64,000 nt of DNA from positions 736,001-800,000 of the forward strand of contig CM000430.1 of assembly GCA_000165345.1 (NCBI GenBank). The letters run 5' to 3'. The notes under the pieces were generated by a model. It was not told where the DNA came from. It ran no database searches and saw only the letters and a program-made list of their open reading frames with translations. Position 1 is the stretch's first letter. The number at the start of each line of letters is the position of its first letter. The translations under genes and the position numbers were made by a program. Positions 24,795-27,769 of the stretch are shown piece after piece.

Positions 24795-26150
24795 ATGAGA
24801 AATACAAGTTCTCTATTACATAATACTAGCATTAATAATGATCCATATCATAATTCAGTAGTAATTGATATCAATCATACAAATATTGGAGAATATGTAC
24901 AAGAAAATAAAAAATATCCAAGTAATTCTTTTATTATATTAATCTTATTAATATCTACAATCATTATAATTAATCATGGATGGTATTATGGAATTCTATT
25001 ATTAATTATATCCATTTCTCCTGGAATATTAATAATATATCAATTTAAAAAATATATTATAGAAGATGAAATTAGTATTAAAACTATTACAGATTTATTC
25101 ACTTTTGGTGCAATCATATCTGTATCTACTACATTATTACTTGAAGGATTATTTTTTAATTATATATTTTATTTTAAAAATGATAATTATAATAATTATA
25201 TTGATCAATTTGGTTGTAATATTGGTTTTTCATTATATATATTAATTATTTTAATTAAATATATTATTTCTATTGGAATTATTGAAGAAGCATGTAAATT
25301 AATAGGATTATTAACTATTAAGCCTTATATTGAAGATATTAATTATAAAGAATCTTTTATTAGTCATTATTTAAAATCAAATTTTGGATATGTTATTGCT
25401 GGTATTTCTTCTTCACTTGGATTTGCAATTATTGAAAATATTGTATATTTATCCAATTCTATGGAAAGTATTATTATCATGATTCTTGTTGGTATTGCTA
25501 GAGGTATTATTTCTATTCCTTTTCATATATTTGCATCAGGATATACAAGTATATTATTTAGTAGACAAATTTTTATACAAAATGATTATTATTCTAATAA
25601 TAATAACAATAATAATAATAATAATAATTACTATTATTATTACCTTATTTATATACTTAAACAAATTATTATTAAATTTCTAACCTTACTACCAGCTGGA
25701 ATCTTACATGGAATTTATGATTCTAGTCTAATCTTACTAGTACTTATTAATCAAAATTATAATAAAGATGAAATACTTAGTTATAATTTAAATTCTACAT
25801 GTAATTTAAATACAAGAATTCTTAAATTATTTCTAACTTTATTTCCATTAAAAATTAATAAATTATTTGGAAGTTTTAAAAATCAAAATCTTATAGAAAA
25901 TTCATTCAATAATTGTTTTGGTACATTTTTTTATAATTTAATTACTATTGGATTCTTCATATTTGCTATATTATCTTATTTTATATGTTTTTTTCTATTT
26001 ATTTATAATTGGATTTATCTTGAAAAACAAAATTCTAATAGAAGAATAATAACAACAACCAGAACAATTAGTAGAAATAATATCAGTAATAGTATTAATA
26101 ATATCAATAATACTGAAATAAGAGAAATAGAACTTACAAGAGAACAATAA
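24795..26150 (+). CDS. PrsW-family (M82/CPBP-like) polytopic intramembrane metalloprotease homolog
   Basis: ATG at 24795; multiple predicted TM helices. Four conserved PrsW motifs in order: [13 protein letters not shown] (EExxK); [11 protein letters not shown] (B. subtilis PrsW LGFATLENILY); [10 protein letters not shown] (PVSSHALIG); [12 protein letters not shown] (PSLLHGSYDF). Contains host-style Asn(11)/Tyr(5) runs. Confidence 0.7.
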   Translation: [451 protein letters not shown]

Positions 26151-26209
26151 TAACAATACAAATAAAAAGAAAGTGTAGGAAAAAAGATCGAATCTTATAT
26201 CTAATATTA

Positions 26210-27769
26210 TTAAACAATAGAATCTAATAAGTTTGAATAATCTTTGCTAAATAAATTCATTGATTGTATAAGAATATCTGCAGGACTATTAATATTTAAA
26301 ATACCATCTTCTTTTTTCAATGATTTTTGAATAAATTCTGACAATGTTCTTCTCCAAAATTTTGTACCAGAAAACCCATGAAATATACCAAATACTGGTT
26401 TTAAATACATATTTAATTCTCCTATAGTAAATTGACCTTGATCTTTAATATTTCTTGGCTTAAATTTAGATAAATATTCTACATATCTTTCCAATACAAT
26501 CCTTCTTGTTAAGTGAATACTACTATTATTACCATTAGTATTAATACAATTATTATTATTATTATTATTATTATTAACTTGATTATAATTAATCCCATAA
26601 ATCATACTATCTACTTTTGATAATATAAATGGATTATTCATGACTTCTCTTCCTATCATGACTCCTTTTATCTTATTAATCCATTTACCTGATTGAATGA
26701 TTTGATATAAATTTTGATATTCTTGAGTTAATGTAAGATAAGAATTAGATGATAATGTTTCAATATGATGATCATCTTTCAAATGATCAGTTCTTATTTT
26801 CTTAATTTTTGTATAATTATTAATTTCTAATTCATTATCTTTTATATCATCTTTATAGTTATTTAAATACCATTGAATATACCAATCACCAGTTAATATT
26901 GAAATACATTCTTGTATACTTGTTACTCCTCCATTCAAAATAAATGTTAAATTAGGAAAATCAAGAGTTAACATATAAACCCAATAATATTTTAATTTTG
27001 GAATGGTTCTATTTTTACTAGGATTAATACCATTTAACCAAGCTTTTCTTGCATGTATAATAAATACATTGGCTCCTATAAAATTATTTTCTGTATAATC
27101 AATAGATTCTAATATATTTGAATCAGAATCATCATCAGATTGTGGAAATATACAAGAATAATCTTTTTTATTTTGATTATTTATATTACAACCAGATACT
27201 AATGATATAAAATTATATAAATGTTGATATGTATCATATTGATCAACTCCAATCCTAGTTTTAACTGATATACGTTTATTAACTAATCCCAAATGAATTA
27301 ATTTTTTGTTACATGTATCAACAATTTTTGCAACTCTAAGTGGATTTTTAAATAATGATGCACCAAAACTACCTTTAGAAGCTACTTTACATGATGGGCA
27401 TCCAACATTTAAATTAAAATTCTGAAAACCATATTTATAAGCTATTTCAATAGCTTTTTCCATTTTTTGAGGATTATTACCACCTAATTGTAATACTAGA
27501 GGATTTTCAATATCATTCTTTTTAAAATGTACATCTTGAAGAATTTTTCGTCTATTTTCATCATTATAACAATGTATGATTGTATCATCTACTACCATTT
27601 CTGTCCATAATTCTGTTTTTTTTGAGATAATTCTACATAACATTCTAAAATGACTGTTTGTAACATCAAGCATTGGTGCTACAGAAATTATTGAATTACT
27701 TAAATTATTATAAGTTGTCAATAATTTCTGTTTTTGTTCTTCTTCATTATATGATTGGTCATCCTTCAT
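26210..27769 (-). CDS. tRNA-dihydrouridine synthase, DusA-type
   Basis: ATG at 27767-27769. Motifs: [15 protein letters not shown] (DusA APMLDWTDRHCR); NLNVGCPS...FGASL; [34 protein letters not shown] (E. coli DusA [26 protein letters not shown]); GVMIGRE. Three low-complexity inserts, including an Asn(9) run. Confidence 0.8.
   Translation of the reverse strand: [519 protein letters not shown]

What the first reader, a model, noticed from the sequence alone, without database searches (positions are those of the whole stretch)
24795..27769. Convergent pair of prokaryote-type genes (PrsW-family protease and DusA-type dihydrouridine synthase) in a eukaryotic chromosome
Two adjacent genes belong to families that are mainly prokaryotic.
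- The first (24795..26150) carries the four signature PrsW motifs, including [11 protein letters not shown] against B. subtilis PrsW LGFATLENILY.
- The second (26210..27769) is nearly collinear with bacterial DusA. It is not the eukaryotic Dus1-4 type: APMLDVTN against the DUS4L form CAPMVRYS, and [22 protein letters not shown] against E. coli [22 protein letters not shown].
Both genes are fully host-like in composition, with Asn/Tyr homopolymer inserts and AT-rich codons, so this is not contamination. Their stop codons are only 60 bp apart. Possible explanations are an old horizontal acquisition, organelle-derived genes, or conserved protist lineages of these families. A PrsW-type regulated intramembrane protease in a eukaryote has no described role.
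Basis: partly seen in the sequence, partly recalled or inferred. Interest (0 to 1): 0.65.

Follow-up and report, generated by a model that had tools for sequence, protein, structure and literature searches.

The report
Annotated Cryptosporidium PrsW protease and DusA genes
Two neighbouring Cryptosporidium parvum genes do belong to mostly bacterial families (a PrsW-type membrane protease and a DusA-type tRNA enzyme), but both are old, already annotated genes shared with related parasites and algae, so this is ordinary.

Summary
ORF 24795..26150(+) matches Pfam PrsW-protease (E 1.2e-13) and keeps all four catalytic motifs. ORF 26210..27769(-) passes NCBIfam's DusA equivalog cut-off and is collinear with E. 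coli and Thermus DusA. The stop codons are 59 bp apart.

The window is Cryptosporidium parvum, on a ~992 kb chromosome at about 770 kb. Public assemblies already call both genes, and sister species name them "Protease PrsW" and "YjbN-like tRNA dihydrouridine synthase".

Neither gene is a Cryptosporidium-specific transfer.
- **PrsW:** a profile search of 1.84 billion proteins found 34 relatives. Every named one in the top 28 is eukaryotic: other Cryptosporidium, gregarines, Platyproteum, Chromera and Vitrella. Digyalum, Neospora and an oomycete rank lower. Bacteria first appear at E~6e-5.
- **DusA:** it groups with gregarine, coccidian, Babesia and dinoflagellate homologues and shares an insertion with the first two.
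- **Adjacency:** it is conserved within the genus (C. muris, C. xiaoi) but absent in Gregarina, Neospora and Vitrella. Tight convergent ends are normal in this window.

The one mildly interesting inference is that this DusA must act on nuclear-encoded tRNAs, because Cryptosporidium has no organelle genome. No role has been described for the PrsW-type protease in apicomplexans.

The parts
24795..26150 (+). PrsW-family (MEROPS M82, Pfam PF13367) polytopic membrane metalloprotease gene, 451 aa, no intron
25284..25298 (+). Motif 1, EEACK (E164 E165 ... K168): the paired catalytic glutamates
   Evidence: Invariant in 23 eukaryotic homologues. Aligns with SEEGFKY of a bacterial PrsW. Coordinates.
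25416..25448 (+). Motif 2, [11 protein letters not shown] (G209 F210 A211 ... E214 N215 ... Y218)
   Evidence: Invariant or nearly invariant. The bacterial PrsW P0153 has LGFATIENIAY. Coordinates.
25500..25526 (+). Motif 3, R236 ... P242-F-H244
   Evidence: R236, P242 and H244 are invariant. The bacterial equivalent is RAVLSVPIH.
25587..25643 (+). Asn/Tyr low-complexity insert (YYSN11Y5) in the loop between motifs 3 and 4; length differs between isolates and species
   Evidence: Other C. parvum assemblies have a 6-bp deletion here.
25707..25721 (+). Motif 4, HGIYD (H305 ... D309)
   Evidence: Nearly invariant. The bacterial equivalent is HGVYD.
26151..26209 (.). 59-bp spacer between the two convergent stop codons
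   Evidence: Other convergent gaps in the window are 26 and 31 bp.
26210..27769 (-). DusA-type tRNA-dihydrouridine(20/20a) synthase gene, 519 aa, no intron
   Evidence: NCBIfam NF008774, 273.6 bits against a cut-off of 269. T. thermophilus DusA 3B0V, E 2e-38. E. coli DusA, 38% identity, E 5e-52.
27392..27415 (-). NLNVGCPS: the NxGCP motif holding the catalytic cysteine (C124; equivalent to E. coli C114)
   Evidence: Motif definition from PMC3674756.
27254..27265 (-). VKTR: the KxR motif holding the catalytic lysine (K170)
   Evidence: K170 and R172 are invariant in alignment A3. Motif definition from PMC3674756.
26999..27064 (-). [22 protein letters not shown]: the HxR motif plus the DusA-subfamily-specific segment (E. 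coli [14 protein letters not shown])
   Evidence: The subfamily-specific insertion is described in PMC3674756.
27080..27202 (-). Insert 1 (residues 190-230), found only in Cryptosporidium
   Evidence: Absent from bacterial and other alveolate homologues.
26678..26902 (-). Insert 2 (residues 290-364), starting LTGDW. The insertion site and the G-x-W start are shared with gregarine and coccidian DusA-like proteins.
   Evidence: Alignment A3. No counterpart in 3B0V or E. coli DusA.
26510..26590 (-). Insert 3 (residues 394-420), containing the Asn run

Best explanation
These are two unrelated, vertically inherited housekeeping genes of Cryptosporidium parvum. Their 3' ends happen to face each other in a very compact genome.

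(1) The plus-strand gene encodes a polytopic membrane protein of the PrsW family, part of the CPBP/type-II-CAAX-protease superfamily.
- All residues that make up the metal- and glutamate-dependent active site are present, so it is most likely an active membrane-embedded endopeptidase.
- By analogy with bacterial PrsW, it would cut a membrane-anchored substrate at or near the membrane surface.
- Its substrate cannot be an anti-sigma factor and is unknown.
- The protein belongs to a clade present across apicomplexans and their algal relatives, so it was in the common ancestor of these organisms.

(2) The minus-strand gene encodes a DusA-type flavin (FMN/NADPH) enzyme that reduces uridine to dihydrouridine in the tRNA D-loop. 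The positions are 20/20a by analogy with E. coli and Thermus DusA.
- Cryptosporidium has neither a plastid nor a mitochondrial genome (established knowledge).
- The protein has only about 30 mostly acidic or polar residues ahead of the catalytic domain.
- It therefore must work on nuclear-encoded tRNAs in the cytosol or nucleus.
- It too belongs to a eukaryotic (alveolate) clade. Its ultimate bacterial source is old and unresolved.

Shown here: family membership, motif conservation, taxonomic distribution and synteny. Inferred: catalytic activity, substrates and location.
For: Family membership:
- PF13367 at E 1.2e-13. NF008774 DusA at 273.6 bits against a cut-off of 269.
- All 23 aligned eukaryotic PrsW homologues hit PF13367.
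- The PrsW active-site motifs are invariant and align with a bacterial PrsW.
- The AF2 model is an all-helical membrane bundle. Its best PDB neighbours are TMEM147 and APH-1B, which are CPBP-fold relatives.
- DusA keeps the catalytic Cys, Lys and HxR motifs and the DusA-specific segment. It is collinear with 3B0V and E. coli DusA.

PrsW distribution:
- An exhaustive profile search gave only 34 hits.
- Every named hit in the top 28 is eukaryotic: C. bovis/xiaoi, C. muris, Lankesteria, Gregarina, Porospora, Platyproteum, Vitrella and Chromera.
- Digyalum, Neospora and an oomycete rank lower.
- The first bacterial hit comes at E 5.9e-5.
- In an NJ tree rooted on a bacterial PrsW, Cryptosporidium is monophyletic with species-tree branching order and is sister to other apicomplexans and chrompodellids.
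- The Neospora and Vitrella genes contain introns.

DusA distribution:
- After Cryptosporidium, the best full-length hits include a gregarine, Besnoitia and a dinoflagellate.
- The split separating eukaryotes from the first set of sampled bacteria has 100/100 NJ bootstrap support.
- With 39 named bacteria added, the alveolate clade that includes Cryptosporidium is recovered in 110 of 200 replicates.
- The insertion after the NGG motif is shared with gregarine and coccidian proteins.

Synteny and location in the genome:
- C. muris has the same order: Nsp1, PrsW(+), Dus(-), a 668-aa gene, then a giant gene.
- The C. xiaoi locus tags are consecutive.
- The gene pair is present in several independent C. 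parvum assemblies, and the PrsW gene is identical to the window in one of them.
- The surrounding genes are typical eukaryotic genes.
Against: - No experiment or expression data could be consulted, so activity, substrate and localisation are all inferred.
- The trees are neighbour-joining on crude distances.
- Support for the alveolate DusA clade is only moderate (55%). Support for monophyly of all eukaryotic DusA-like proteins is poor (47/200).
- Long-branch attraction among fast-evolving eukaryotic sequences cannot be excluded.
- The DusA equivalog score passes its cut-off only narrowly, because of the inserts.
- The best structural neighbours of the PrsW model are non-catalytic proteins (APH-1, TMEM147). 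No solved PrsW structure exists for comparison.
- I could not enumerate the other Dus paralogues of Cryptosporidium. Which tRNA positions this enzyme covers therefore remains an analogy.
Confidence: 0.82

Rival explanations
1. One or both genes entered the Cryptosporidium lineage by recent or lineage-specific horizontal transfer from bacteria.
For: Both families are overwhelmingly bacterial. Cryptosporidium is known to carry bacterial-type genes (PMC545779). The two genes are adjacent.
Against: - Neither gene is in the 2004 list of transferred C. parvum genes, as far as the text search shows.
- The closest PrsW relatives are all eukaryotic. Bacteria reach only E~6e-5 against the Cryptosporidium profile.
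- DusA clusters with alveolate homologues and shares an insertion with them.
- Both genes occur in the deepest-branching Cryptosporidium species, in the same synteny.
- Identity to the best bacterial DusA sequences is only about 40%.
Confidence: 0.03
2. The DusA gene is a relic of endosymbiotic gene transfer. It came from the red-algal or cyanobacterial plastid lineage, or from the alphaproteobacterial mitochondrial ancestor. It originally served organellar tRNAs and was retained or redeployed after Cryptosporidium lost its plastid and mitochondrial genome.
For: - Kasprzak et al. 2012 proposed organelle-derived origins for eukaryotic DusA members (PMC3674756).
- A tRNA dihydrouridine synthase is among the debated 'algal' genes of oomycetes (PMC5592239).
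- The gene is shared with plastid-bearing relatives: coccidia, piroplasms and dinoflagellates.
Against: - A eukaryote-plus-cyanobacteria grouping was recovered in 0 of 200 NJ bootstraps, and there was no stable alphaproteobacterial sister.
- The alveolate homologues have only 20-30 residues ahead of the catalytic domain, so there is no room for a bipartite plastid leader or a presequence.
- The oomycete re-analysis found most such trees unresolved.
Confidence: 0.3
3. The two genes are a co-transferred bacterial gene cluster or are functionally linked, which would explain why they stay together.
For: The adjacency is conserved across the genus: C. parvum, C. muris, C. xiaoi, C. ubiquitum and C. 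canis carry both genes on the same contigs.
Against: - The genes are convergent, not co-directional.
- The whole block, including unrelated neighbours, is syntenic.
- PrsW is not next to a Dus gene in Gregarina, Neospora or Vitrella.
- Convergent gaps of 26-59 bp are routine in this window.
Confidence: 0.03
4. The PrsW-like protein is a catalytically dead scaffold, as APH-1 and TMEM147 are, rather than a protease.
For: The top structural neighbours are the non-catalytic APH-1B and TMEM147. No substrate is known.
Against: The glutamate and histidine motif residues, plus the motif-4 aspartate, are invariant or nearly invariant across distant eukaryotic homologues. They match those of bacterial PrsW. 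That pattern indicates selection on catalysis.
Confidence: 0.1
5. The region is bacterial contamination or a mis-assembly.
For: None beyond the family names.
Against: - GC content is 18-25%, with Asn/Tyr runs.
- The gene pair is present in several C. parvum assemblies and read sets, and the PrsW gene is identical to the window in one assembly.
- The region is syntenic in C. muris.
- It is flanked by spliceosome and nucleoporin genes.
Confidence: 0.01

Closest known systems
Bacillus subtilis PrsW (YpdC), site-1 protease of the anti-sigma factor RsiW; MEROPS M82, Pfam PF13367
   Same: - The Pfam family is the same, with the score above the gathering threshold.
- The same four motifs are present: EExxK, GFAxxENxxY, R...PxH and HGxYD.
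- The architecture is a polytopic helical membrane protein, and pairwise identity to a bacterial family member is about 25%.
   Different: - The organism is a eukaryote with no sigma or anti-sigma factors, so the substrate must differ.
- The protein is about twice as long, with extra N- and C-terminal helices and a low-complexity loop.
- It belongs to a separate apicomplexan/chrompodellid clade that bacterial PrsW proteins barely reach (E~6e-5).
- Activity is untested.
PrsW-like (PF13367) proteins of other eukaryotes: Neospora/Toxoplasma, Gregarina, Vitrella/Chromera, Malassezia
   Same: It is orthologous to the apicomplexan and chrompodellid members. A 2015 paper already lists Cryptosporidium, Toxoplasma, Neospora and Plasmodium among PF13367 holders (PMC4634964).
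   Different: The Malassezia genes were interpreted as a recent transfer from skin bacteria. The apicomplexan genes are old, and some carry introns. None of them has a described function.
E. coli and Thermus thermophilus DusA, tRNA-dihydrouridine(20/20a) synthase (PDB 3B0P/3B0V)
   Same: - Collinear TIM-barrel and helical domains.
- The catalytic Cys, Lys and HxR motifs and the DusA-specific [14 protein letters not shown]-type segment are present.
- The NCBIfam equivalog score is above its cut-off.
   Different: - Three inserts add about 140 residues.
- The host has no organelle tRNAs, so the substrates are nuclear-encoded tRNAs.
- The modified positions are untested.
Eukaryotic DusA-subfamily members described by Kasprzak et al. 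2012 (Arabidopsis At3g63510 and At5g47970; Encephalitozoon cuniculi)
   Same: These are DusA-type enzymes encoded in eukaryotic nuclei. Encephalitozoon, like Cryptosporidium, has a mitosome without a genome, and its protein was predicted to be cytoplasmic (PMC3674756).
   Different: One plant copy is predicted to be chloroplast-targeted.
Eukaryotic Dus1-Dus4
   Same: Same Dus superfamily (Pfam PF01207) and the same chemistry.
   Different: The protein scores as DusA rather than as another bacterial subfamily. It also carries the DusA-specific segment that the other subfamilies lack. I made no direct comparison with Dus1-4 sequences.

Membership tests
PrsW family (Pfam PF13367 / MEROPS M82) | Significant match to the family profile, above the curated threshold | tested here: met
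   51.5 bits against a gathering score of 23.5, E 1.2e-13, covering profile positions 9-176 of 196. All 23 aligned eukaryotic homologues also match.
PrsW family (Pfam PF13367 / MEROPS M82) | Conserved active-site motifs: paired glutamates (EExxK), FxxxE(N), a conserved His after R...P, and HxxxD | tested here: met
   EEACK 164-168, [11 protein letters not shown] 208-218, R236/PFH 242-244 and HGIYD 305-309. These are invariant or nearly invariant in A2 and align with the motifs of a bacterial PrsW.
PrsW family (Pfam PF13367 / MEROPS M82) | Polytopic alpha-helical membrane protein with the CPBP / type II CAAX protease fold | tested here: inconclusive
PrsW family (Pfam PF13367 / MEROPS M82) | Site-1 cleavage of a membrane anti-sigma factor (RsiW) in a sigma-W type pathway | not testable with these tools
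   Eukaryotes lack sigma and anti-sigma factors. The substrate is unknown, and no literature on apicomplexan PrsW function was found.
DusA subfamily of tRNA-dihydrouridine synthases | Match to the curated DusA equivalog model above its cut-off, and better than to DusB or DusC | tested here: met
   NF008774 scores 273.6 bits against a cut-off of 269. DusB scores 84 bits (cut-off 293) and DusC 25 bits (cut-off 395). The older TIGR00742 subfamily model scores 243 bits, below its 397 cut-off, because the inserts split the match.
DusA subfamily of tRNA-dihydrouridine synthases | Catalytic motifs NxGCP (Cys), KxR (Lys) and HxR | tested here: met
   NLNVGCPS 119-126, VKTR 169-172 and HAR 239-241 are invariant in A3 and align with 3B0V and E. 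coli DusA. The motifs are defined in PMC3674756.
DusA subfamily of tRNA-dihydrouridine synthases | DusA-specific conserved segment [14 protein letters not shown] | tested here: met
   [14 protein letters not shown] occupies the homologous position, with 7 of 14 residues identical, including the P, NR, IP and L positions. The feature is described in PMC3674756.
DusA subfamily of tRNA-dihydrouridine synthases | Formation of D20/D20a in tRNA | not testable with these tools
   This needs tRNA modification mapping in a mutant.
Horizontally transferred bacterial gene specific to Cryptosporidium | Closest relatives are bacterial, and the gene is absent from sister eukaryotic lineages | tested here: not met
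   The closest relatives of both proteins are other apicomplexans and alveolates.

The most novel reading that the evidence does not exclude
The DusA-type enzyme, not a canonical eukaryotic Dus2/Dus4, could be the cytosolic D20/D20a synthase throughout apicomplexans and their relatives. That would be a bacterial-type tRNA-modifying enzyme permanently redeployed to nuclear-encoded tRNAs. Cryptosporidium would be the natural proof, because it has no organellar tRNAs at all.

In parallel, the conserved PrsW-like protein could be an active membrane protease that starts a still-unknown regulated-proteolysis pathway in the parasite's secretory system. Such a protease has no mammalian counterpart.
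Probability: 0.4. Interest if true: 0.4.

Novelty: already known. Interest (0 to 1): 0.18.

Why it matters
It matters little as a discovery.
- Public Cryptosporidium annotations already call and name both genes.
- The presence of both families in eukaryotes is in the literature (PMC3674756 in 2012; PMC4634964 in 2015).

Two points have modest value.
- An organism with no organelle genome keeps a DusA-type enzyme. This shows that eukaryotic DusA homologues need not be organellar, which bears on how they are usually explained.
- The PrsW-type protease is conserved across apicomplexans, looks catalytically intact and is uncharacterised. To my knowledge it has no mammalian counterpart. That makes it a reasonable but unremarkable candidate for functional study or as a drug target.

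Tried and rejected
- **Word-indexed protein searches for PrsW.** A single-sequence search and a profile search returned only Cryptosporidium hits. The exhaustive HMMER search was needed to reach other taxa.
- **Sequence search of the PDB with the PrsW profile.** It gave only spurious transmembrane matches to acetylcholine and GABA-B receptors.
- **Structure searches.** Foldseek against the PDB gave nothing significant. The afdb50 library was unavailable.
- **RNA genes.** Rfam at gathering thresholds and ARAGORN found no RNA genes anywhere in the window.
- **Literature.**
  - The 2004 list of C. parvum transferred genes mentions neither gene in its main text.
  - The T. gondii metallopeptidase survey does not mention M82 or PrsW.
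  - Searches for apicomplexan PrsW function or the apicomplexan Dus complement found nothing useful.
- **Cyanobacterial (plastid) origin of DusA.** I added 9 cyanobacterial and 9 alphaproteobacterial sequences. A eukaryote-plus-cyanobacteria grouping was recovered in 0 of 200 bootstraps, and no stable sister group emerged.
  - One extracted bacterial ORF (Rubrivivax, 499 aa) is probably mis-delimited and forms an artefactual long branch.
- **Operon-relic idea.** I rejected it after finding no PrsW-Dus adjacency in Gregarina, Neospora or Vitrella.
- **Not possible with the tools.**
  - I could not list the other Dus paralogues of Cryptosporidium.
  - I could not fetch plant or microsporidian DusA sequences or the B. 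subtilis PrsW sequence.
  - I could not look up expression data.

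
Full report
**1. What is in the sequence**

The window is very AT-rich (18-41% GC). Its long ORFs encode typical eukaryotic proteins:
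- an SF3b145-type splicing factor (DUF382 + PSP) at 6043..7851(+);
- an Nsp1-type nucleoporin at 20684..23287(-);
- a WD40 protein at 58592..59719(-).

ORF 24795..26150(+) is 451 aa and ORF 26210..27769(-) is 519 aa. The gap between their stop codons is 59 bp.

The 519-aa protein occurs with exactly this sequence in several Cryptosporidium parvum assemblies. It lies on a ~992 kb chromosome at about 766-774 kb. There both ORFs are already called as genes with the same lengths. The PrsW gene in the window is base-for-base identical to CP029781.1. The window is therefore C. parvum, and contamination or mis-assembly is excluded.

**2. The plus-strand gene is a PrsW-family protein**

- It matches Pfam PF13367 at E 1.2e-13, 51.5 bits against a gathering score of 23.5.
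- Sister species already annotate the orthologue as "Protease PrsW" (C. tyzzeri) or "Protease prsW family protein" (C. meleagridis, C. muris).
- In an alignment of 23 eukaryotic homologues, these residues are invariant or nearly so: E117, E164-E165-x-x-K168, G209-F-A-x-x-E214-N215-x-x-Y218, R236, P242-x-H244 and H305-x-x-x-D309.
- These blocks align one-to-one with a bona fide bacterial PrsW from a Bacillota MAG. That protein has SEEGFKY, LGFATIENIAY, RAVLSVPIHM and IIHGVYD, at 25% identity and pairwise E 1e-13.
- An AlphaFold2 model built on this alignment is an all-helical membrane bundle (pLDDT 76, pTM 0.77).
- No PrsW structure has been solved. Sequence and Foldseek searches of the PDB gave nothing meaningful.

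**3. The PrsW gene is not a Cryptosporidium oddity**

I ran an exhaustive HMMER search with a profile of eight Cryptosporidium orthologues against 1.84 billion representative proteins. It returned only 34 hits at E <= 1e-3. Every named hit in the top 28 is eukaryotic:
- C. bovis/xiaoi and C. muris;
- the gregarines Lankesteria, Gregarina and Porospora;
- Platyproteum;
- the chrompodellid algae Vitrella and Chromera.

The first bacterial PrsW appears at E 5.9e-5. The named hits at about that rank or below are a second Vitrella protein, Digyalum, Neospora and the oomycete Peronosclerospora.

A neighbour-joining tree rooted on the bacterial sequence shows Cryptosporidium as monophyletic. Its internal branching follows the species tree: C. 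muris is deepest, then C. bovis/xiaoi, C. canis, C. ubiquitum and the parvum group. The genus is sister to the other apicomplexan and chrompodellid proteins.

The Neospora and Vitrella loci do not translate colinearly to the protein, which means they contain introns.

A 2015 paper had already noted, from Pfam, that PF13367 occurs in Toxoplasma, Neospora, Cryptosporidium and Plasmodium (PMC4634964).

**4. The minus-strand gene is a DusA-type dihydrouridine synthase**

- It matches Pfam Dus at E 1.8e-41.
- It passes NCBIfam's DusA equivalog model (273.6 bits, cut-off 269). It scores far lower on DusB (84 bits) and DusC (25 bits).
- It is collinear with Thermus thermophilus DusA (3B0V, E 2e-38) and with E. 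coli K-12 DusA (38% identity, E 5e-52).
- The catalytic NxGCP cysteine, KxR lysine and HxR motifs are present. So is the DusA-specific segment, [14 protein letters not shown] against E. coli [14 protein letters not shown]. Kasprzak et al. 2012 define all of these features (PMC3674756).
- Three inserts (residues ~190-230, ~290-364 and ~394-420) account for the extra length.

**5. The DusA gene is also lineage-typical**

After the Cryptosporidium orthologues, which include C. muris and C. serpentis, the best full-length matches include a gregarine, Besnoitia and a dinoflagellate. Babesia proteins also match, over about half of the query. Bacterial DusA proteins align only over the core.

- In an NJ tree of 121 sequences, the eukaryotic proteins separate from the sampled bacteria. 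With half of the bacteria subsampled (78 taxa), the split has 100/100 bootstrap support.
- I then fetched 80 DusA loci from named bacterial genomes. I used 39 of them, plus E. coli DusA. The 39 include 9 cyanobacteria and 9 alphaproteobacteria.
- With these added, Cryptosporidium is monophyletic in 200/200 replicates.
- The alveolate clade that contains Cryptosporidium is recovered in 110/200.
- All eukaryotic sequences together are recovered in only 47/200.
- A eukaryote-plus-cyanobacteria grouping is recovered in 0/200.

These are crude distance trees. They support membership in an alveolate clade moderately and leave the ultimate bacterial source unresolved.

An independent character agrees with the trees. 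The second insert begins at the same site, with a conserved G-x-W, in Cryptosporidium, a gregarine, a coccidian and an unnamed relative. It is absent from the bacteria.

DusA-subfamily genes in eukaryotes were described in 2012, in Arabidopsis and in the microsporidian Encephalitozoon, which also lacks a mitochondrial genome. A tRNA dihydrouridine synthase is also among the disputed "algal" genes of oomycetes.

**6. The adjacency**

C. muris, which belongs to the deepest-branching group of the genus, has the same local order: Nsp1 nucleoporin(-), PrsW(+), Dus(-), a ~600-670 aa gene(-), then a giant ~6000 aa gene(-). C. xiaoi has consecutive locus tags for the two genes.

This is general synteny of a whole block. 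PrsW is not next to a Dus gene in Gregarina niphandrodes, Neospora caninum or Vitrella. The genes are convergent, and other convergent pairs in this window are only 26 and 31 bp apart. The pairing is therefore coincidental packing in a compact genome. It is neither an operon relic nor a co-transfer.

**7. How the two proteins most likely work (inference)**

The PrsW-like protein keeps every catalytic residue across a very deep divergence. I therefore take it to be an active membrane-embedded glutamate/metal-dependent endopeptidase that clips a membrane-anchored substrate, as bacterial PrsW does with RsiW. Its substrate must be different and is unknown. I found no paper addressing its function in any apicomplexan.

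The DusA-type enzyme should reduce U20/U20a in the D-loop using FMN and NADPH. Cryptosporidium has no plastid and no mitochondrial DNA (established knowledge). The protein also has only about 30 acidic or polar residues before the catalytic domain. Its substrates must therefore be nuclear-encoded tRNAs. The other alveolate homologues also lack long N-terminal leaders, which hints that the whole clade is cytosolic.

I could not test whether this enzyme replaces Dus2 or Dus4 in these organisms.

**8. Verdict**

Both genes are already annotated, and the presence of both families in eukaryotes is published. The finding is therefore already known and of low interest. What remains is an uncharacterised, conserved, apparently active protease, and a clean natural demonstration that a DusA-type enzyme can serve cytosolic tRNAs.

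Noticed in passing
window 24558..24573 and 24758..24777: Tandem or overlapping TGCATGCA palindromes (aatgcatgcatgcatt; catgcatgcattacatgcat) lie about 20-240 bp upstream of the PrsW start codon. From memory, this matches the over-represented AP2-type upstream motif reported for Cryptosporidium promoters. I did not test for enrichment.
   Followed up: no
window 23288..24794, especially 23812..23932: The divergent intergenic region between the Nsp1 nucleoporin gene and the PrsW gene is about 1.5 kb, against about 380 bp in C. muris. It is mostly AT microsatellite. It also holds a small GC-rich island with two CCCGCC boxes (23812..23820 and 23924..23932, E2F-like) and a 9-nt inverted repeat, ctataccgg/ccggtatag (23864..23872 and 23906..23914). 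Rfam found nothing there.
   Followed up: partly
window 25608 (Asn run) and 25152, 25878, 25926: The PrsW gene varies among C. parvum assemblies. Two sources have a 6-bp deletion in the Asn run plus one N-to-D SNP, giving 449 aa. Assembly GCA_035232765.1 has three separate 1-bp deletions that break the ORF, so only a 149-aa fragment is called. These are most likely long-read homopolymer errors rather than a real pseudogene.
   Followed up: yes
window 9761..11386 (-): A 541-aa ORF with a hydrophobic N-terminus and long Arg/Ser-rich repeat arrays (SRDN/SRNN units, then RSRT units) has no Pfam match. It accounts for the local GC peak of about 41%.
   Followed up: partly
window 176..2356 (+): A 726-aa Gly/Ser/Gln-rich low-complexity ORF with poly-Q and poly-S tracts has no Pfam match. 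It accounts for the GC-rich first 2 kb of the window.
   Followed up: partly
window 33013..52752 (-): A single uninterrupted ORF of 6579 aa. A giant gene of 5992 aa occupies the same syntenic position in C. muris. I did not analyse its domains.
   Followed up: no
window 28173..29975 (-): A 600-aa Asn/Asp-rich ORF lies directly downstream of the Dus gene. It has no Pfam family and is conserved in position in C. muris as a 668-aa gene.
   Followed up: partly
P0143, P0145 and P0148 (locus L003 for P0145): A distinct subgroup of PrsW-like proteins has VSVPGHMAFSAL in place of the PFH motif and Ser-rich tails. They come from unnamed eukaryote-like assemblies (for example GCA_037189325.1) and cluster inside the apicomplexan/chrompodellid clade. 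The source organisms were not identified.
   Followed up: partly
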